This document shows positions 2,031 to 30,326 of a stretch of 64,000 nt of DNA, one piece after another. The notes under the pieces were generated by a model that did not search any database, was not told the origin of the DNA, and saw nothing but the letters and a program-made list of their open reading frames with translations. Each line of letters opens with the position of its first letter. Position 1 is the first letter of the stretch. Source of the stretch: an uncultured Bacteroidia bacterium (lineage in GTDB: Bacteria; Bacteroidota; Bacteroidia; Palsa-948). The DNA lies in the NCBI GenBank assembly GCA_964481195.1, contig CAYZTB010000005.1, positions 10,138 to 74,137 of the forward strand, given 5' to 3'. A program made the translations under genes and the position numbers.

Positions 2031-3473
2031 TTATTTTTGAGCTGAGCCGTAATCAATACCCTGTTTTAAAAGAATGCCTCTAGCTTTCCATCCATAAAAA
2101 GCCAAATAAAGAAAACAACATACTCCTACCAAGTAGCTAGCTTGAATGCCTAGTCTATTATCTCCAGCAAGATATCCCTGCAGCCAGCTTACCAACCCTC
2201 CACCCATTATCATCATAATTAAAAAACTGGAGGCATCGTTTGTATGTTTTCCTAATCCCGCAATTGAAAGTGTAAAAATGCAAGGCCACATGGTAGAACA
2301 AAATAATCCAACACTGATGAAAGCATAAACGCTTACAATGCCATTAGCGAAAATACCAATGAGAAGAGCCAATATTCCCAGCGAAGAGAAGATGATTAAT
2401 TGCTTTGCCGGATTTCCTCTACTGAAAATATCAGCCACAATTATTACTACAATTAGTACGGAATAAATGTAGAAAGGTGCTAAATCATGATTAGCTAAAT
2501 AATTTACAAGTAGAAAAATCCCAAAAGCGGCATAGGGTAAAATAAAATTTAATATGTGCCTAACTCCTTTTTTTACACGGAAGGCACCCACTGCACTAGT
2601 CCACCTGCCAATCATTAGGCTGGCCCAGAAAAGAGAAACGTATGGAGCTACCTCCCCAGTTTGAGTACCTAGGTGCTGACGCATAAACTCTGGGAGATTA
2701 GAAGCTGTGGAAACTTCCACTCCCACATAAAGAAAAATCCCCAGCATACCAAGTCGTAGCTGAGGATAGCTTAACGCAGAAGAATAAGTTGAGGTGTTTT
2801 TTATTTTTTCGAATTGTAATTCCTTTGCTTCTTCCTGATGAATAATTTTATTGGGAATGGAGGAGAATTTGAAAACAATGGCAGCTACAAAAAATGCAAC
2901 TCCTAAAATTAGATAAGGGGTTTTTACAGATTCTAAATTTTCTAATTTTTGACCTGCCGCAAGAGAGCCAAATATCGCTAAGCTTACCAATACTGGACCG
3001 ATGGTAGTACCCACATTATTAATTCCTCCAGCCAAACTTAATCGCTGAGCACCCATTTTGGGATCTCCCATATTGATGGCTAGCGGATTTGCAGCCGTTT
3101 GTTGTAGCGAAAATCCTAGGCCTACAATGAACAAGCCGCATATTATAAAACCAAATGATTCTGTCATAGCAGCAGAATAAAAGAATAATGTGCCCAAAGC
3201 TGAGATAACTAAACCGATGGCAATTCCATTTTTATAGCCAATTCTGTTTAGTAAATTTTCTTTTGTCATCTTGGATATTAAAAAATAAATAATAGAGCCC
3301 ACGGTGTATGCCACATAAAAGGCTACCGAAATCATTTGACTTTGCCACTGTTCCAGCCCTAGTTTTTCCTTAAATACAGGAATAAGAATATCGTTACTGG
3401 CTGCAACAAATCCCCAAAAAAAGAATACAGATATAAGCGTTATAAAAGGTGAAATGGGGGGCTTGTTATTCAT
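2031..3473 (-). CDS. MFS sugar:H+ symporter, FucP/GluP (fucose/glucose/galactose/mannose) family
   Basis: About 12 TM helices. The N-terminal FFWGFVAASNDILIPVFK motif is typical of FucP/GluP permeases. A 5-nt gap to the downstream GH92 gene indicates an operon. Confidence 0.8.
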   Translation of the reverse strand: MNNKPPISPFITLISVFFFWGFVAASNDILIPVFKEKLGLEQWQSQMISVAFYVAYTVGSIIYFLISKMTKENLLNRIGYKNGIAIGLVISALGTLFFYSAAMTESFGFIICGLFIVGLGFSLQQTAANPLAINMGDPKMGAQRLSLAGGINNVGTTIGPVLVSLAIFGSLAAGQKLENLESVKTPYLILGVAFFVAAIVFKFSSIPNKIIHQEEAKELQFEKIKNTSTYSSALSYPQLRLGMLGIFLYVGVEVSTASNLPEFMRQHLGTQTGEVAPYVSLFWASLMIGRWTSAVGAFRVKKGVRHILNFILPYAAFGIFLLVNYLANHDLAPFYIYSVLIVVIIVADIFSRGNPAKQLIIFSSLGILALLIGIFANGIVSVYAFISVGLFCSTMWPCIFTLSIAGLGKHTNDASSFLIMMIMGGGLVSWLQGYLAGDNRLGIQASYLVGVCCFLYLAFYGWKARGILLKQGIDYGSAQK

Positions 3474-11818: not shown

Positions 11819-11892
11819 TCGGGTAGACAAGATTTGAACTTGCGACCTCTCCCACCCCAAGGGAGTGCGCTACCGGGCTGCGCCACTACCCG
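11819..11892 (-). tRNA. tRNA-Pro (anticodon GGG), 74 nt, CCA not encoded
   Basis: A manual cloverleaf fits. Acceptor CGGGTAG/CTACCCG, D-stem GCGC/GCGC, anticodon stem CTCCC/GGGAG with loop TTGGGGT (GGG plus G37), T-stem GCAAG/CTTGT with loop TTCAAAT, discriminator A. Confidence 0.8.
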
Positions 11893-22521: not shown

Positions 22522-24729
22522 ATGGCATCCGCTACGCAGCAACTCTCTCTAAAAGGTCACCTCAAAAAAATCTTTGGATTTTCAAAATTCAAAGGCGAGC
22601 AAGAGCAGATCATGGAGAATGTTTTAAACGGCAAAGATACATTCGTTATTATGCCTACTGGCGGTGGCAAATCGCTCTGCTACCAACTACCAGCATTAAT
22701 AAGTGAAGGAACTGCCATTGTAGTATCGCCATTAATAGCCTTGATGAAAAATCAAGTAGATCTTATCCGCGGATTTGGCACAAAAGATAATATTGCACAC
22801 TTTCTAAATTCTTCCTTAGCAAAAGCAGAGATAATAAAAGTAAAGGAAGAGCTAACAGCAGGAAAAACCAAGATTTTATATGTAGCTCCCGAATCCTTGG
22901 CAAAAGAGGCCAACGTAGAGTTTTTTAAAAATATTAAAATCTCTTTTATTGCAATTGACGAAGCACATTGCATTTCGGAATGGGGTCATGATTTCCGTCC
23001 TGAATATCGCAGAATAAGAGAGTTGATCGATGAAATTGGAAGAGTGCCTATCATTGCACTAACAGCTACTGCCACTCCTAAGGTGCAGCAAGATATTTTA
23101 AAAAATCTTTGCATTCCAGAAGCTACCGTATTCAAAGCTTCTTTTAATCGCCCGAATTTATATTACGAAGTACGATCTAAAATTGAAGCTCCTAGGCAAA
23201 TCATACAATACATTCGAAAAAACCAAGGCAAATCAGGAATTATTTATTGCCTGAGCAGAAAACAAACCGAGGCACTTGCCAGCACCCTTAATGTAAATGG
23301 AATTCGTGCAGTACCCTATCATGCCGGGTTAGAAAAAGATATTCGTTCAAAAACACAGGATCAGTTTTTAATGGAAGATGTGGAAGTAATTGTAGCTACG
23401 ATTGCTTTTGGAATGGGCATTGACAAACCGGATGTTCGTTTTGTGATGCACTACGATATTCCAAAATCGCTCGAAGGCTATTATCAGGAAACTGGTCGAT
23501 CTGGAAGAGATGGTGGTGAGGGGCATTGCATTGCTTTTTATAGCGAGGCTGATATTCAAAAGCTTGAAAAATTTCTGAAAGGAAAGCCAGTTGCTGAGCA
23601 GGAAATAAACAAACAACTTATACAGGAAGTAGTTACCTATTCTGAATCATCTGTTTGCAGAAGAAAAACGCTGCTTCATTATTTTGGAGAAAAATACGAA
23701 CAAGAAAATTGTGGCAACTGCGATAACTGTACAAATCCTAAGAAAAAGTTTGAAGGAAAAGACGATGTTGAGTTGTTGCTTGAAGCAATTATTGAGATGA
23801 AGGAAAAGTTTAAACCCAAGCACGTGGTGCAGGTTTTAACAGGCACATTAACTTCCTTCATCAAGCAATATAAGCACAACGATCTTGAAATATTTGGCAA
23901 AGGACTGGAAGATGGTAAAAACGAAAAATTTTGGAACGCTGTAATTCGACAAGCACACGTTGAAGGATTATTATCTAAAGACATCGACAACTATGGGCTT
24001 TTAAAAGTTACTAAAGCAGGAAGGAAGTTTTTAGAAAAACCTACTTCTTTTATGCTTACCAAGGATCATAGTTTTGACTTGTCGGAAAACGAAGCGGATG
24101 ATGTAATAGTTGCAGGAGGCCAAGGCGGTGCTGCATTGGATCAACCACTTTACAAAATGCTTAAAGACCTTGTTAAGCAAGTATCCAAGAAAGAAAAGCT
24201 TCAGCCATGGATTATATTCCAAGAGACTTGCTTATCAGAAATGGCAACTACCTACCCTACAACATTAGATGAAGTAGCAAAAGTATCGGGTGTTGGTCCG
24301 GGCAAAGCGCAGCGATACGGAAAGCCTTTTGCTGAATTGATTGCTAAATATGTAAAAGAAAATAAGATTGAACGTCCACAAGATTTAGTTGTTAAATCTA
24401 CTGTGAATAAATCTGGACTTAAAGTTTTCCTTATTCAAGCCATAGACAGAAAGTTAAGCTTGGAAGATATAGCAGATGCAAAAGGATTATCAATGAATGT
24501 ACTTATCGGAGAGCTTGAAAGCATTGTTTCGGCAGGTACCCGGGTTAATATTGAGCACTATATTGACGAAGTAATTGACGAAGATGTTCAAGATGATATT
24601 TACGAGCATTTTAAGAGTGCCGAATCTGACTCTGTTGAACTTGCCATGAAAGAACTTGGCGAAGACGAATACGATGAAGAAGATGTTAGGCTGGTGCGAA
24701 TCAAGTTTATATCCGAATTCGGGAACTAG
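22522..24729 (+). CDS. recQ: ATP-dependent DNA helicase RecQ
   Basis: FGFSKFKGEQEQI...PTGGGKSLCYQLPAL, a DEAH box, the RecQ zinc-binding Cys cluster, and C-terminal HRDC-like regions. Confidence 0.9.
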   Translation: MASATQQLSLKGHLKKIFGFSKFKGEQEQIMENVLNGKDTFVIMPTGGGKSLCYQLPALISEGTAIVVSPLIALMKNQVDLIRGFGTKDNIAHFLNSSLAKAEIIKVKEELTAGKTKILYVAPESLAKEANVEFFKNIKISFIAIDEAHCISEWGHDFRPEYRRIRELIDEIGRVPIIALTATATPKVQQDILKNLCIPEATVFKASFNRPNLYYEVRSKIEAPRQIIQYIRKNQGKSGIIYCLSRKQTEALASTLNVNGIRAVPYHAGLEKDIRSKTQDQFLMEDVEVIVATIAFGMGIDKPDVRFVMHYDIPKSLEGYYQETGRSGRDGGEGHCIAFYSEADIQKLEKFLKGKPVAEQEINKQLIQEVVTYSESSVCRRKTLLHYFGEKYEQENCGNCDNCTNPKKKFEGKDDVELLLEAIIEMKEKFKPKHVVQVLTGTLTSFIKQYKHNDLEIFGKGLEDGKNEKFWNAVIRQAHVEGLLSKDIDNYGLLKVTKAGRKFLEKPTSFMLTKDHSFDLSENEADDVIVAGGQGGAALDQPLYKMLKDLVKQVSKKEKLQPWIIFQETCLSEMATTYPTTLDEVAKVSGVGPGKAQRYGKPFAELIAKYVKENKIERPQDLVVKSTVNKSGLKVFLIQAIDRKLSLEDIADAKGLSMNVLIGELESIVSAGTRVNIEHYIDEVIDEDVQDDIYEHFKSAESDSVELAMKELGEDEYDEEDVRLVRIKFISEFGN

Positions 24730-26459: not shown

Positions 26460-28259
26460 TTACTTCTTATCGTTACGCTTTCTTTCGTTCTCGTCAAGAA
26501 CAATTTTTCTCATACGAATATGCTTGGGCGTGATTTCCACCAGCTCGTCCTTTTGAATATATTCCATGGCTTCCTCAAGCGAAAATTTAATTTTAGGAGC
26601 AATGCGCATTTTATCCTCACTGCCTGTTGCACGCATATTAGTTAGCTTTTTTTCTGTGCAAATGTTAATAGTAAGATCATCTGGTCGAATGTGTTCGCCA
26701 ATAACTTGACCGGAATAAATTTCATCTCCTGGCTCTACAAAATATTTTCCTCTGTCTTGTAAACGATCGATCGAATAAGCAATAGCTGGACCTTTTTCTT
26801 TTGAAATTAATACACCTGATATTCTACCTGGAATATTTCCTTTCCAAGGCTCAAAACCTTTAAAACGGTGAGCCATAATTGCCTGTCCTGCTGTTGCTGT
26901 TAAAACGGCATTTCTCAAGCCAATTAATCCTCTTGCAGGAATATCAAACTCAAGTCTTGTTAAATCACCTTTAGGCTCCATGGAAAGCATTTCGCCTTTG
27001 CGCTGCGATACAAACTCAATAACTTTTCCTGAGTAATCTTGCGGAACATCAACAGTAAGCACCTCAATAGGTTCGTTCTTAGCTCCATCAATTTCTTTTA
27101 TGATTACTTGTGGTTGACCAATTTGCAATTCATATCCTTCTCTTCTCATGGTTTCAATAAGAATTGCTAGATGAAGAATTCCTCTTCCAAATACCATATA
27201 TGCATCTGGCGAGTTGGTAGGCTCTACACGTAATGCAAGATTTTTCTCTAACTCTTTATCCAGCCTTTCTTTTAAATGTCTGGAGGTTACAAATTTCCCG
27301 TCTTTACCAAAAAATGGAGAGGTATTAATTGTAAACAACATACTCATAGTAGGCTCATCAATTGCAATTGGCTTTAGGCCTTCTGGATTGTCAAAATCTG
27401 CAATGGTATCTCCAATATCAAAACCTTCAATTCCGGTTACTGCACAAATATCGCCTGACTTAACTACGGTTTCTTTTTTCTTTGCTAATCCATCAAAAGA
27501 AAACACTTCTCTAATTCTTGACTTTACAATTTTACCATCTCGTTTAACTAACGAGAAAGGCATATTCTCTTTTATTTCTCCTCTAAAAACTCTACCAACA
27601 GCAATACGACCAATAAAGGAAGAATAATCCAAAGAGGTAATTTGCATTTGCGGAGTTCCTTCACGAGATGGAGCAGAAGGAATGTGTTCAATAATTGCAT
27701 CTAATAATGGGAGAATATCAGTAGTAGCATCTTTCCAATCCGTACTCATCCACCCTTGCTTAGAAGACCCATAGATAGTAGGAAAATTAAGTTGCTCTTC
27801 GGTAGCGCCAAGGTTAAAAAAAAGTTCGAATACACCATCGTGCACTTCGTCTGGTCTGCAATTTGGTTTATCAACTTTATTGATTACAACAATTGCTTTA
27901 AGTCCATGTGATAATGCTTTTTGTAGCACGAAACGTGTTTGAGGCATAGGTCCTTCAAAAGCATCTACTAACAACAATACTCCATCAGCCATATTTAATA
28001 CACGCTCCACCTCTCCACCAAAATCTGCGTGACCGGGAGTGTCAATAATATTAATCTTAGTGTCTTTGTATTTTACCGAAACGTTCTTTGCTAGAATAGT
28101 GATTCCACGCTCTCTTTCTAAATCGTTGTTATCTAGAATAAGCTCTCCGGTTTCTTGGTTTTCTCTAAAAAGCTGACACTGATGTAAGATTTTATCAACC
28201 AAAGTTGTTTTGCCATGGTCAACGTGTGCAATAATGGCGATGTTTCTGATTTTTTGCAT
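26460..28259 (-). CDS. typA: Translational GTPase TypA/BipA
   Basis: IRNIAIIAHVDHGKTTLVD G1 motif, DTPGHADF, NKVD, and a 599-aa length. Confidence 0.9.
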   Translation of the reverse strand: MQKIRNIAIIAHVDHGKTTLVDKILHQCQLFRENQETGELILDNNDLERERGITILAKNVSVKYKDTKINIIDTPGHADFGGEVERVLNMADGVLLLVDAFEGPMPQTRFVLQKALSHGLKAIVVINKVDKPNCRPDEVHDGVFELFFNLGATEEQLNFPTIYGSSKQGWMSTDWKDATTDILPLLDAIIEHIPSAPSREGTPQMQITSLDYSSFIGRIAVGRVFRGEIKENMPFSLVKRDGKIVKSRIREVFSFDGLAKKKETVVKSGDICAVTGIEGFDIGDTIADFDNPEGLKPIAIDEPTMSMLFTINTSPFFGKDGKFVTSRHLKERLDKELEKNLALRVEPTNSPDAYMVFGRGILHLAILIETMRREGYELQIGQPQVIIKEIDGAKNEPIEVLTVDVPQDYSGKVIEFVSQRKGEMLSMEPKGDLTRLEFDIPARGLIGLRNAVLTATAGQAIMAHRFKGFEPWKGNIPGRISGVLISKEKGPAIAYSIDRLQDRGKYFVEPGDEIYSGQVIGEHIRPDDLTINICTEKKLTNMRATGSEDKMRIAPKIKFSLEEAMEYIQKDELVEITPKHIRMRKIVLDENERKRNDKK

Positions 28260-28363
28260 ATAAATTATACCTATAAATTTTGAGGCGCGAAGGTAGTCAA
28301 ATCGGGCTTACGACAATAGTTATTATTAAGCACTTAAAATATAGGCTTCAAGTTTTCTTTAAA

Positions 28364-28374
28364 GGGGGGGGGGG
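28364..28374. repeat. Homopolymeric G tract (11 G) in the divergent typA/lpxK promoter region
   Basis: Read directly from the sequence. It lies 105 nt upstream of the typA start and 91 nt upstream of the lpxK start. Confidence 0.9.
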
Positions 28375-28465
28375 TCCATAACAAAGCCAATATTAAAAGC
28401 ATCCAGTATCATGATAATTAAACTGATAGCAACACCCTTCGGGATACTATTCGTATTTTTATAAA

Positions 28466-29554
28466 ATGGAATTCTTGAAACTTTTTTTATTCCCTTTTGC
28501 ATTTATTTACGGGTTGGCTGTTTTTGTTCGCAATTGGCTGTATGACAGCGGCATTCTACCTTCAAAAGAATTTAGCAATTCAGTGATTTCTATTGGAAAT
28601 CTTTCTGCCGGAGGTACCGGAAAATCACCTATGACAGAATACCTTGTTCGATTAATTAAAAGCAAATACACAGTTGCTACGCTGAGCCGAGGATATAAAA
28701 GACAGACCAGCGGATTCATCATTGCTGATGCCAATTCTACTTCTAATCAGATAGGCGATGAGCCTCTCCAGTTCAAAAAAAAATTCCCTGATACTATTAT
28801 TTCGGTCGATGAAAACAGAAGACATGGAATTCAAAAGCTCCTACAAGCACATCCGGAGTTAGAGGTAATTCTACTGGACGATGCTTTTCAACACAGAAGA
28901 ATAAAACCTGGCATAAGCATTTTATTATCCGACTATGGTAAAATGTTTTACGATGATTATTTACTGCCTGTTGGTACGCTGCGCGAATGGCGTTCAGGTA
29001 AAAAAAGGGCCGATATTATTTTAGTCACAAAGTGTCCTGCAAATTTAACGCCTGTGGAAAAAAGAATTATTCTTAAAAAAATAAATCCCGACCCTCATCA
29101 ACACATCTACTATTCACACATTCGCTACGGTAATCCTATTGTTGTTTTCCCAGCCACTAGGCCACTTTTACTAAACGAAAAAGCAGAAAAAGATGAGACT
29201 GCTATTTTGCTAACTGGAATATCTAATCCAAGACCTTTGGAAGATTATTTGCTAAAGAAAAAAATAAATATTGTGTCTCTAACCTATCCCGATCACCACC
29301 AATATACGCTTGTTGACGCTAACGGGCTGATAGAAAAGTTTAACTCAATTACTAGCTCCAAGAAGTATATTATTACAACCGAGAAAGATGCAATGCGGCT
29401 AGACAAATTAGGCTTAATAGAAATATTAAATAAATTACCTATCTATTACATTCCTATAGAAACAGATTTTAATGAAAAAGAAAAAATAGATTTTGAAAAA
29501 TTAATTATCGACTATGTCCTTAGAACAAATCAAAAAAACAGCAGCATTCATTAA
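28466..29554 (+). CDS. lpxK: Tetraacyldisaccharide 4'-kinase
   Basis: SIGNLSAGGTGKSPMTEYL P-loop, and an N-terminal membrane anchor. Confidence 0.85.
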   Translation: MEFLKLFLFPFAFIYGLAVFVRNWLYDSGILPSKEFSNSVISIGNLSAGGTGKSPMTEYLVRLIKSKYTVATLSRGYKRQTSGFIIADANSTSNQIGDEPLQFKKKFPDTIISVDENRRHGIQKLLQAHPELEVILLDDAFQHRRIKPGISILLSDYGKMFYDDYLLPVGTLREWRSGKKRADIILVTKCPANLTPVEKRIILKKINPDPHQHIYYSHIRYGNPIVVFPATRPLLLNEKAEKDETAILLTGISNPRPLEDYLLKKKINIVSLTYPDHHQYTLVDANGLIEKFNSITSSKKYIITTEKDAMRLDKLGLIEILNKLPIYYIPIETDFNEKEKIDFEKLIIDYVLRTNQKNSSIH

Positions 29555-30326
29555 GGATAAAGTAACCTTTAGTCCAGAAGTAGGAATTGTTTTAGGAACT
29601 GGGCTTGGAGCACTTGCAAAAGAAATCGAAGTTCAACATACTATTCCTTACGAAGAAATTCCTTCCATGCCACTTTCTACGGTAGAAGGTCATTCTGGGA
29701 AATTATTATTTGGCATTTTAGGAGGGAAAAAGGTGATGGCTATGCAAGGCAGGTTTCATTTCTACGAAGGCTATACGATGGAGCAAGTTGTGTTTCCAAT
29801 TCGAGTAATGAAGCAACTGGGCATTCAAACACTGTTGGTTTCTAATGCAAGTGGAGGGGTTAATCCGGATTTCGAAATAGGCGACTTGATGATAATTACC
29901 GATCATATAAATTTAATGCCAAACCCTTTAATTGGAAAAAATGAAGAACAACTTGGAGTGCGCTTTCCGGATATGAGTGAAGCCTATGATAAATCATTGA
30001 TTCAAAAAGCAATTAACATTGCTACAAAACACAAAATACCCGTTCAACAGGGCGTATATATTGGGTTAACAGGTCCAACACTTGAAACTCCTGCCGAATA
30101 CAAATACATGCGTGCCATTGGCGGAGATACCGTAGGAATGAGCACTACATCTGAAGTAATTGCTGCTGTACATATGGGAATTCCAGTTTTTGCAATGAGT
30201 ATTATTACTGATCTTGGTGTTGAGGGTAAAATTAAAAAGGTGACTTTAAATGATATTTTAAGAACCGCTGAAAAATCAGAGCCAAAGATGACGGTTATAA
30301 TGAAAGAGCTACTAAAGGCGCTGTAA
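29514..30326 (+). CDS. Purine nucleoside phosphorylase (trimeric PNP/PunA-type)
   Basis: GIVLGTGLG...VEGHSGKLLFG...MQGRFHFYEGY...VSNASGGVN. It overlaps the lpxK 3' end by 41 nt. Confidence 0.85.
   Translation: MSLEQIKKTAAFIKDKVTFSPEVGIVLGTGLGALAKEIEVQHTIPYEEIPSMPLSTVEGHSGKLLFGILGGKKVMAMQGRFHFYEGYTMEQVVFPIRVMKQLGIQTLLVSNASGGVNPDFEIGDLMIITDHINLMPNPLIGKNEEQLGVRFPDMSEAYDKSLIQKAINIATKHKIPVQQGVYIGLTGPTLETPAEYKYMRAIGGDTVGMSTTSEVIAAVHMGIPVFAMSIITDLGVEGKIKKVTLNDILRTAEKSEPKMTVIMKELLKAL

What the first reader, a model, noticed from the sequence alone, without database searches (positions are those of the whole stretch)
28364..28374. 11-G homopolymer in the typA / lpxK divergent promoter region, a potential slipped-strand switch
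An uninterrupted G11 run is very unusual at this base composition. No other G run longer than 5 is visible in the 64 kb. It lies between the divergent starts of typA (105 nt away) and lpxK (91 nt away). Length variation of such tracts changes promoter element spacing in many bacteria, giving phase-variable expression. lpxK affects lipid A 4'-phosphorylation, so variable expression could have envelope consequences. The tract could also be part of a small RNA in this 205-nt intergenic region.
Basis: seen in the sequence. Interest (0 to 1): 0.5.

Follow-up and report, generated by a model that had tools for sequence, protein, structure and literature searches.

The report
Strain-variable G11 tract between typA and lpxK
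A real run of eleven G's lies between two housekeeping genes of an uncultured Bacteroidota bacterium and differs between co-occurring strains, but it lies outside the conserved promoter-proximal DNA and is absent from all relatives, so it is most likely a slippage-prone accident and not a genetic switch.

Summary
G11 is at 28364-28374, in the 206-nt spacer between typA (26460-28259, -) and lpxK (28466-29554, +). It is a clear outlier: the next longest G/C run is 6 in the window, and 7 in 217 kb of related loci.

The tract is real and not an artefact. Three assemblies carry it with unique flanks on both sides. It is also polymorphic: a second strain haplotype, marked by three linked SNPs, has G9TT instead of G11T. 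Five contigs from other assemblies break within about 55 nt of it.

The functional reading is weak.
- Two relatives that keep typA next to lpxK have no tract (L012, 78-nt spacer; L055, 190-nt spacer). Neither do about 35 other lpxK loci.
- Only about 60 nt next to typA and about 21-35 nt next to lpxK are conserved. The tract sits 40-70 nt beyond both blocks, so it is not between promoter elements.
- Both genes are housekeeping genes.
- No RNA family, stable fold, terminator, flanking inverted repeats or other simple repeats were found.

Best reading: a young, hypermutable and probably near-neutral homopolymer, at most a weak expression modulator. A true phase switch is possible (about 0.2) but unsupported. 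Read pile-ups and mapping of transcription start sites would decide.

The parts
28364..28374 (+). G11 homopolymer (C11 on the typA-sense strand). This is the focal feature.
   Evidence: It is G11 in L001, L002 and L003, and G9TT in L004 and L005.
26460..28259 (-). typA/bipA, a translational GTPase of 599 aa.
   Evidence: TIGR01394, 895 bits against a cut-off of 757. The start codon is conserved in L012, L046 and L055.
28466..29554 (+). lpxK, tetraacyldisaccharide 4'-kinase of 362 aa.
   Evidence: TIGR00682, 145.5 bits against a cut-off of 92. The start context ATGGAATT is conserved in seven relatives.
28260..28320 (-). Conserved block next to typA. I infer that it holds the 5' UTR and core promoter of typA. 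It includes a -7-like box, TAnCTTCG, at 28295-28288.
   Evidence: It aligns with L012, L044, L046 and L055 whatever lies further upstream. The motif scan is. The promoter assignment is inference; no transcription start data exist.
28445..28465 (+). Conserved block next to lpxK, TACTATTCGTATTTTTATAAA. It includes a -7-like TATTTTTA at 28454-28461, 4 nt before the ATG.
   Evidence: It is nearly invariant in L012, L044, L046, L047, L048, L054 and L055. The promoter or leaderless-transcript reading is inference.
28321..28444 (.). Non-conserved central part of the spacer, which carries the tract. It is replaced by 12 nt in L012 and by mostly unalignable sequence in L055.
   Evidence: It has no significant similarity to relatives' spacers, apart from the 16-mer listed next.
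28343..28358 (+). 16-mer AGGCTTCAAGTTTTCT, 5 nt to the left of the tract. It matches the L055 spacer at 14 of 16 positions. Its role is unknown.
   Evidence: Smith-Waterman score 22, p about 0.001 against 1000 shuffles. This was one of several tests.

Best explanation
The G11 is a real, lineage-specific G:C mononucleotide tract. It arose recently in the dispensable middle of the typA-lpxK spacer and mutates faster than its surroundings by slipped-strand mispairing, gaining or losing single G's.

Shown:
- The tract exists with unique flanks on both sides.
- It differs between two strain haplotypes of one population.
- Assemblies break at it.
- It is absent from all relatives.
- It lies outside the blocks conserved next to each start codon.

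Inferred:
- The conserved blocks hold the core promoters and leaders of typA and lpxK.
- A change in tract length therefore alters only the distance and helical phase between two back-to-back promoters (about 34 degrees per base pair), not the spacing inside either promoter.
- Because both genes are housekeeping genes, the tract has little or no regulatory role. It is a near-neutral hypermutable site, at most a weak tuner of expression.
For: The tract is real.
- G11 has identical unique flanks in three contigs, from JGI 3300020596, Logan SRR6448212 and Logan SRR6448209.
- The two-colour-chemistry poly-G artefact sits only at the 3' ends of reads. It therefore cannot produce a G run flanked by real sequence on both sides on the same strand (inference).

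It is polymorphic.
- L004 and L005 carry G9TT in a 205-nt spacer, on a haplotype that also has SNPs at 24458, 28909 and 29007.
- Over 27.4 kb compared between the two haplotypes there are 7 SNPs and one 25-nt indel. The only 1-nt indel is in the tract. No A8-9 or T8-9 run changed length.
- L011 begins with TTCCAT, directly at the tract's right edge.

Assemblies break here.
- L006 ends in the tract.
- L007 and L008 end 22 nt to its left.
- L011 starts at its right edge.
- L050 starts 53 nt to its right.

It is not conserved.
- L012 (TypA 92% identical, LpxK 73%) has a 78-nt spacer without the tract.
- L055 (LpxK 73%) has a 190-nt spacer without it.
- In 36 related loci totalling 217 kb the longest G/C run is 7.

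It lies outside the conserved blocks.

No other signal was found.
- No Rfam match.
- No stable fold.
- No terminator-like site, and sigma-70-like hits no more frequent than in shuffles.
- No inverted repeats that would flank an invertible promoter.
- No other simple repeats in the window.
- No further G/C run of 7 or more in 8 kb more of the contig.
Against: - A G11 in a 37% GC genome is hard to reach by point mutation alone, and long G tracts are normally selected against. Its persistence on at least two haplotypes could therefore hint at selection.
- No transcription start sites are known for this organism. A lineage-specific promoter inside the central spacer cannot be excluded. For example, the -7-like TATATTTT at 28343-28336 (-) would put its -33 position on the edge of the tract.
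- The G9TT and G11T difference comes from assembly consensus sequences, not reads. Part of it could be Illumina error at a homopolymer.
- Several Logan and JGI contigs probably derive from the same reads, so the number of independent observations is small.
Confidence: 0.55

Rival explanations
1. This is a functional simple-repeat switch or rheostat. Slippage in the tract changes transcription of lpxK, typA or both. It could do so by shifting the helical phase or distance between an upstream site and a core promoter. Alternatively the tract could overlap the -33 region of a lineage-specific upstream typA promoter, as the poly-C of Neisseria opc overlaps its -35.
For: - G11 exceeds the published mutability cut-offs of poly-G/C 7-8 or more (PMC6321876).
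- The length differs between haplotypes.
- It lies between divergent starts.
- A 1-mismatch -7-like box, TATATTTT at 28343-28336 (-), lies 20 nt from the tract, so its -33 position would fall on the tract edge.
- A 16-mer 5 nt from the tract is shared with L055 and could be a protein-binding site.
- There is precedent. Treponema pallidum tprL has an upstream poly-G that varies from 7 to 11 G, and a reporter was active with 8 G and near background with 10 G (PMC7864442).
Against: - The tract is absent from all relatives, including L012 and L055, which have the same gene arrangement.
- It lies outside the conserved promoter-proximal blocks.
- 1-mismatch -7-like motifs are common here: 8 in 321 nt on both strands. 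The one near the tract lacks the consensus final G.
- typA and lpxK are housekeeping genes, and lpxK is essential in most Gram-negative bacteria (general knowledge). That is unlike the surface or modification genes that normally phase-vary.
- There is only one such tract in about 72 kb and no other simple repeats.
- A literature search found no report of homopolymer phase variation in Bacteroidota and none linked to lpxK.
Confidence: 0.2
2. The tract is a scar of a rearrangement. The typA-lpxK spacer is a structural hot spot, and the tract marks the junction left when a DUF4139 gene, present here in several relatives, was lost. It has no function of its own. This concerns origin and is compatible with the best explanation.
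For: - Relatives at 70-78% LpxK identity carry a 542-544-aa DUF4140/DUF4139 gene at this site. In L044, L046 and the P0011 contig it is seen between typA and lpxK. In L045, L048/L049 and L054 it is seen divergent to lpxK, but the contigs end before typA could be reached.
- The window, L012 and L055 lack that gene.
- The left flank of the tract resembles the L055 spacer.
- The right flank begins (G/T)TCCATAA. TTCCATAA recurs 50-60 nt upstream of the DUF4139 start in L044, L046, L048 and L054.
Against: - The similarity of the right flank to the DUF4139-lpxK spacers is no better than shuffled controls (p>0.5).
- No remnant of DUF4139 coding sequence is found in the window.
- No known deletion mechanism leaves a poly-G.
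Confidence: 0.1
3. The tract is a sequencing or assembly artefact: poly-G from lost signal, or a chimeric join.
For: - Contigs break at or near the tract in several assemblies.
- L006 ends in G16 followed by CGATCT and unrelated sequence. From memory, CGATCT is the 3' end of an Illumina adapter. That points to an artefactual contig tip.
- Poly-G junk contigs exist in such data (L043).
Against: - G11 has the same unique flanks on both sides in three contigs made by two assembly pipelines.
- The typA-lpxK adjacency and both ends of the spacer are confirmed in L012 and L055.
- A second allele is linked to SNPs.
- The 3'-end poly-G artefact cannot be followed by genuine sequence on the same strand (inference).
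Confidence: 0.05
4. The tract is a structured nucleic-acid element: part of a small RNA or a long lpxK 5' UTR, or a two-tetrad G-quadruplex in DNA or RNA that acts on transcription or translation.
For: - The G's are on the lpxK sense strand.
- A promoter-like pair on the + strand, TTTG then 17-18 nt then TAAATTTTG at 28253-28282, could in principle yield a 180-nt leader containing G11.
- An 11-nt G run can in principle form GG-G-GG-G-GG-G-GG (my own reasoning).
Against: - No Rfam match at E<=10.
- No terminator-like site.
- The spacer folds less stably than shuffles on both strands, with z +1.32 and +0.87.
- The tract is not conserved.
- The + strand promoter-like motif is also present in L044 and L046, where no downstream gene exists on that strand. 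It is therefore explained as the complement of the typA leader.
Confidence: 0.05

Closest known systems
Promoter-associated poly-G tracts of Treponema pallidum tpr genes (tprL, and tprE, G, J, F, I)
   Same: A poly-G of similar length lies upstream of a gene start and varies by single G's. In tprL it ranges from 7 to 11 G (PMC7864442).
   Different: - There the tract lies in the mapped promoter region, is shared across subspecies, flanks outer-membrane protein genes, and has a measured effect (a reporter was active with 8 G and near background with 10 G).
- Here no transcription start site is known, the tract is absent from relatives, the genes are housekeeping genes, and no expression data exist.
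Neisseria meningitidis porA (poly-G between -10 and -35) and opc (poly-C over -35)
   Same: A homopolymeric G:C tract in an upstream region that is prone to slippage (as summarised in PMC7864442).
   Different: - In porA and opc the tract sits inside the core promoter, so its length sets the element spacing or the -35 context.
- Here the tract lies 44 nt and about 57-70 nt outside the conserved promoter-proximal blocks.
- Bacteroidota promoters use -33/-7 elements (general knowledge), and none flanks the tract convincingly.
Campylobacter poly-G/C contingency loci (the 'phasome')
   Same: The tract type and length class are the same (poly-G of 7 or more). About 20% of phase-variable gene groups include homologues with intergenic tracts (PMC6321876).
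   Different: - Campylobacter genomes carry many such tracts, mostly inside genes for surface modification.
- Here there is a single tract in about 72 kb, and it is intergenic between housekeeping genes.
Invertible-promoter phase variation, the usual Bacteroidota mechanism
   Same: It would also give variable expression from an intergenic region.
   Different: No inverted repeats flank the spacer and no recombinase gene is adjacent. This is not that mechanism.

Membership tests
Simple-repeat transcriptional phase-variation (contingency) locus | The repeat tract is at or above the empirically mutable length (poly-G/C of 7-8 or more). | tested here: met
   G11. The cut-off is from PMC6321876.
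Simple-repeat transcriptional phase-variation (contingency) locus | The tract length varies between or within strains. | tested here: inconclusive
   G11T and G9TT occur on two haplotypes, and contigs break at the tract. This rests on assembly consensus only. Within-sample read heterogeneity could not be examined.
Simple-repeat transcriptional phase-variation (contingency) locus | The tract lies inside a core promoter (between the two promoter elements or over the upstream one) or another defined regulatory element. | tested here: not met
   The tract lies in the non-conserved centre of the spacer, 44 nt beyond the typA block and about 57-70 nt beyond the lpxK block. Caveat: no transcription start data, so a lineage-specific promoter is not excluded.
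Simple-repeat transcriptional phase-variation (contingency) locus | The controlled gene is dispensable or environment-facing (surface structure, modification system, restriction-modification). | tested here: not met
   The flanking genes are typA and lpxK. That they are housekeeping genes is general knowledge.
Simple-repeat transcriptional phase-variation (contingency) locus | The tract is retained at the orthologous site in related strains or species. | tested here: not met
   It is absent in L012 and L055, which have the same gene arrangement, and in all other lpxK loci. The longest G/C run in 217 kb is 7.
Simple-repeat transcriptional phase-variation (contingency) locus | Expression changes reversibly with tract length. 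| not testable with these tools
   This needs reporter fusions or single-cell expression data.
Simple-repeat transcriptional phase-variation (contingency) locus | The genome carries a set of such tracts (a phasome). | tested here: inconclusive
   There is one tract of 7 or more in 64 kb plus 8 kb of the contig, and no other simple repeats. The rest of the genome was not available.
Described small RNA or cis-regulatory RNA (Rfam) | A match to a covariance model, or a stable conserved structure with a terminator. | tested here: not met
   No hit at E<=10 or at gathering thresholds. Folding z-scores are +1.32 and +0.87. No terminator-like site.
Invertible promoter (Bacteroidota type) | Inverted repeats flank the promoter segment, with a site-specific recombinase nearby. 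| tested here: not met
   Only weak inverted repeats of 10-20 nt at 70-90% identity, none flanking the spacer sensibly. No recombinase gene among the neighbouring genes.
Intramolecular G-quadruplex | Four G-runs of at least 2-3 G separated by short loops. | not tested
   A single G11 could give only a two-tetrad fold with G loops. There are no neighbouring G-runs and no quadruplex predictor was available.

The most novel reading that the evidence does not exclude
An environmental, non-pathogenic Bacteroidota bacterium uses a slippage-prone G tract as a stochastic rheostat. It would act on the back-to-back promoters of the lipid A 4'-kinase gene and the translational GTPase gene typA, producing subpopulations with different envelope or translation (stress or cold) states. 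That would extend contingency loci of this kind to housekeeping genes and to a phylum known for invertible promoters.
Probability: 0.12. Interest if true: 0.55.

Novelty: new member of a known kind. Interest (0 to 1): 0.27.

Why it matters
If the tract did tune lpxK or typA, it would be an unusual case: simple-repeat phase variation acting on core envelope or translation genes, in a free-living Bacteroidota bacterium.

As the evidence stands, the value is mainly practical.
- It is a verified hypermutable homopolymer that fragments metagenome assemblies at this locus.
- It marks strain haplotypes within the population.
- It shows that a long homopolymer between divergent genes should not be read as a switch without promoter mapping and comparison with relatives.

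Tried and rejected
1. Small RNA. There was no Rfam hit at E<=10 on 27900-28800 or at gathering thresholds on the whole window (only a tRNA at 11819-11892). RNA folds of both strands were less stable than shuffles. No terminator-like site was found. Rejected.

2. Mobile or repeated element. The central spacer has no second copy in the window or in related loci. Rejected.

3. Invertible promoter. No suitable inverted repeats. Rejected.

4. Metagenome-wide scan for the left flank plus G6 (AGTTTTCTTTAAAGGGGGG). It returned only two unrelated chance hits, L042 and L043.

5. Homology of the central spacer to relatives' typA-DUF4139 and DUF4139-lpxK spacers. Not significant against shuffles. The recurring TTCCATAA next to the tract is therefore treated as unproven.

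6. Sigma-70-type promoter scan. It gave 3 hits against 1.8 expected, which is uninformative and the wrong consensus for Bacteroidota. My TAnnTTTG scan gave only 1-mismatch hits.

7. ORFs across the tract. Only mechanical ORFs of 20-47 aa, with no support.

8. Literature. No report of homopolymer phase variation in Bacteroidota or involving lpxK. The sample accession numbers were not found in the paper library, so the habitat is not documented here. From memory the JGI Ga01631xx series may be Antarctic lake microbial mats; this is unverified.

9. The NCBI copy of the contig (95,390 nt) and other contigs marked 'similar places not shown' could not be displayed, so their tract lengths are unknown.

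Full report
**Observation**

The window carries an uninterrupted G11 at 28364-28374 on the + strand. It lies in the 206-nt spacer (28260-28465) between two divergent genes:
- a 599-aa ORF at 26460-28259 (-), which is TypA/BipA (TIGR01394, 895 bits);
- a 362-aa ORF at 28466-29554 (+), which is LpxK (TIGR00682, 145.5 bits).

Two details are slightly off. The spacer is 206 nt, not 205. There is one G6 at 3456-3461, so the statement that no other G run exceeds 5 is not quite correct.

The window has 36.8% GC. G/C run lengths fall as 104 (length 4), 10 (length 5), 1 (length 6), and then this single run of 11. Several estimates of chance apply:
- With independent bases, a G11 is expected 3e-4 times per 64 kb.
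- A first-order estimate from the run table gives about 0.007 G/C runs of 11 or more per 64 kb.
- Dinucleotide shuffles give 0.62 G8 words per window.
- In 217 kb from 36 related loci the longest G/C run is 7.

The tract is an outlier by every measure, although under the loosest null one per genome would not be extraordinary.

**Source and reality of the tract**

The window is identical to JGI metagenome contig 3300020596 Ga0163149_10000129, which is 95 kb long. T9SS sorting domains and the nearest LpxK and TypA relatives place it in an uncultured Bacteroidota lineage. The nearest non-identical LpxK is only 78% identical.

Exact-protein look-ups found the same locus in other assemblies:

| Locus (source) | What is seen at the tract |
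|---|---|
| L001 (JGI 3300020596), L002 (Logan SRR6448212), L003 (Logan SRR6448209) | G11 with identical flanks |
| L004 (Logan SRR6448211), L005 (JGI 3300020213) | G9TT, spacer 205 nt |
| L006 (JGI 3300015360) | Contig ends in G16, then CGATCT and unrelated bases |
| L007 (JGI 3300020186), L008 (Logan SRR6448210) | Contigs end 22 nt left of the tract |
| L011 (ENA ERZ505514) | Contig starts TTCCAT at the right edge of the tract |
| L050 (JGI 3300015360) | Contig starts 53 nt right of the tract |

The L006 end looks like an artefactual tip. From memory, CGATCT is the 3' end of an Illumina adapter.

The G9TT contigs carry three further SNPs, at 24458, 28909 and 29007, so they represent a distinct strain haplotype. 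I compared these two haplotypes over 27.4 kb. They differ by 7 SNPs and one 25-nt indel, and the only 1-nt indel is in the G tract. No A or T run of 8-9 changed length.

The tract is therefore real. It has unique flanks on both sides in several assemblies, and both ends of the spacer and the gene adjacency are confirmed in relatives. It is also the most variable and most assembly-breaking point of the region. Two caveats apply:
- Some Logan and JGI contigs probably come from the same reads. L004 and L005 are identical, and L007 and L008 share an end.
- Consensus sequences cannot separate true within-sample heterogeneity from Illumina error at a homopolymer.

**Comparison with relatives**

Among the 30 lpxK loci recovered from reference genomes, only L012 has typA next to lpxK. 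L012 is the MAG FW215_bin.19, with TypA 92% and LpxK 73% identical. Its spacer is 78 nt and has no G run. It keeps the 45 nt next to typA and the 21 nt next to lpxK, joined by 12 nt.

L055 (LpxK 73% identical) also has typA adjacent, with a 190-nt spacer and no G run.

Other relatives at 70-78% identity carry a 542-544-aa DUF4140/DUF4139 gene at this site:
- In L044, L046 and the P0011 contig the gene is seen between typA and lpxK.
- In L045, L048/L049 and L054 it is seen divergent to lpxK, but the contigs end before typA could be reached.

The spacer is thus structurally plastic in this clade.

Two blocks are conserved whatever lies between them.
- About 60 nt next to typA (28260-28320). This block includes a TAnCTTCG box at 28295-28288 (-) that is present in the four lineages scanned for it (window, L012, L044, L046).
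- About 21-35 nt next to lpxK (28431/28445-28465). This block includes TATTTTTA at 28454-28461, 4 nt before the ATG, nearly invariant in seven lineages.

The central 28321-28444, which carries the tract, has no significant similarity to relatives' spacers. The exception is a 16-mer, AGGCTTCAAGTTTTCT at 28343-28358, 5 nt left of the tract. It matches L055 at 14 of 16 positions (p about 0.001 against shuffles). At the corresponding point L055 continues with GCATCATTGC, not with G's.

The tract therefore arose within the window's own lineage.

**Other signals sought**

- Rfam gave nothing at E<=10 around the spacer. At gathering thresholds the whole window gave only a tRNA elsewhere.
- Both strands of the spacer fold less stably than shuffles, with z +1.32 and +0.87.
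- No terminator-like site was found. Sigma-70-like hits numbered 3 against 1.8 expected.
- No inverted repeats suitable for an invertible promoter were found.
- ORFs crossing the tract are 20-47 aa and purely mechanical.
- The central spacer is not repeated in the window.
- No other simple repeats were found in the window. There is no further G/C run of 7 or more in 8 kb of additional contig.

**Mechanism**

A homopolymer of 11 G:C pairs is well above the lengths at which slipped-strand mispairing gives high indel rates. Working cut-offs are 7 or more (PMC6321876). The T. pallidum tprL tract varies from 7 to 11 G (PMC7864442). That the tract is hypermutable is therefore the best-supported step, and it agrees with the allele difference and the contig breaks.

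The regulatory step is not supported.
- In the classical cases the tract lies between the two promoter elements (porA) or over the upstream one (opc), as summarised in PMC7864442.
- Here the conserved DNA that most plausibly holds each core promoter and leader lies next to each start codon.
- In L012 both promoters must fit in or around 78 nt made of just those blocks.
- The tract lies 44 nt beyond the typA block and about 57-70 nt beyond the lpxK block. A change of one base pair would only rotate one promoter relative to the other.
- Both genes are housekeeping genes, and lpxK is essential in most Gram-negative bacteria (general knowledge).
- The tract is not conserved in any relative.

One geometry remains open. 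A 1-mismatch -7-like TATATTTT at 28343-28336 (-) would have its -33 position on the edge of the tract. However, such 1-mismatch motifs are frequent here, with 8 in 321 nt on both strands. This one also lacks the consensus final G.

**Verdict**

- Most likely (0.55): a young, slippage-prone, near-neutral homopolymer in the dispensable middle of a plastic spacer.
- A functional switch or rheostat: 0.2.
- A sequencing or assembly artefact: 0.05.
- A structured RNA or G-quadruplex element: 0.05.

This is a new instance of a known kind of sequence feature, not a new kind of system. Read pile-ups, transcription start mapping and reporter fusions with G8 to G13 would settle the question.

Noticed in passing
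window 28411-28464 (+): A 17-aa hydrophobic upstream ORF (MIIKLIATPFGILFVFL) has its stop codon 1 nt before the lpxK ATG. Most of it lies in the lineage-specific part of the spacer, so it is probably a chance ORF in AT-rich DNA.
   Followed up: partly
window 28260-28465, and loci L012, L055, L044-L049, L054: The typA-lpxK junction is a structural hot spot in this clade. The spacer is 78, 190 or 206 nt, or a 542-544-aa DUF4140/DUF4139 gene sits at the site, divergent to lpxK. No DUF4139 homologue is found anywhere in the 64-kb window.
   Followed up: partly
window 28375-28381; L044, L046, L048, L054 upstream of the DUF4139 gene: The octamer TTCCATAA recurs 50-60 nt upstream of the DUF4139 start in four relatives. 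The window has (G/T)TCCATAA directly after the G tract, and the G9TT allele restores the full TTCCATAA. By shuffle tests this is not significant.
   Followed up: partly
window 28343-28358: The 16-mer AGGCTTCAAGTTTTCT matches the typA-lpxK spacer of L055 at 14 of 16 positions (p about 0.001). It could be a protein-binding site of unknown role.
   Followed up: partly
window 29514-29554: lpxK and the downstream purine-nucleoside phosphorylase gene (29514-30326) overlap by 41 nt. The same overlap is called in the relatives L047, L048/L049 and the P0011 contig, which suggests co-transcription or coupled translation. L044/L045, L046 and L055 instead have a 71-128-nt gap.
   Followed up: no
L051 16796-16820 (same contig, about 3.3 kb before the window start): The two strain haplotypes (JGI 3300020596 and 3300020213) differ by a 25-nt indel in the intergenic region upstream of secA.
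   Followed up: no
L044 about 193-662 and L046 about 172-436 (between typA and the DUF4139 gene): Several near-perfect hairpins, for example GTCAGGGTTTTAAACCCTGAC and CAGACCAGATAGGTTTTCAGAACCTGTCTGGTCT. They could be terminators of the DUF4139 gene or small repeat elements.
   Followed up: no
L006 1-30 (JGI 3300015360 contig end): The contig ends with G16 followed by CGATCT and an A-rich unrelated stretch. It looks like a chimeric or adapter-derived tip created at the homopolymer.
   Followed up: partly
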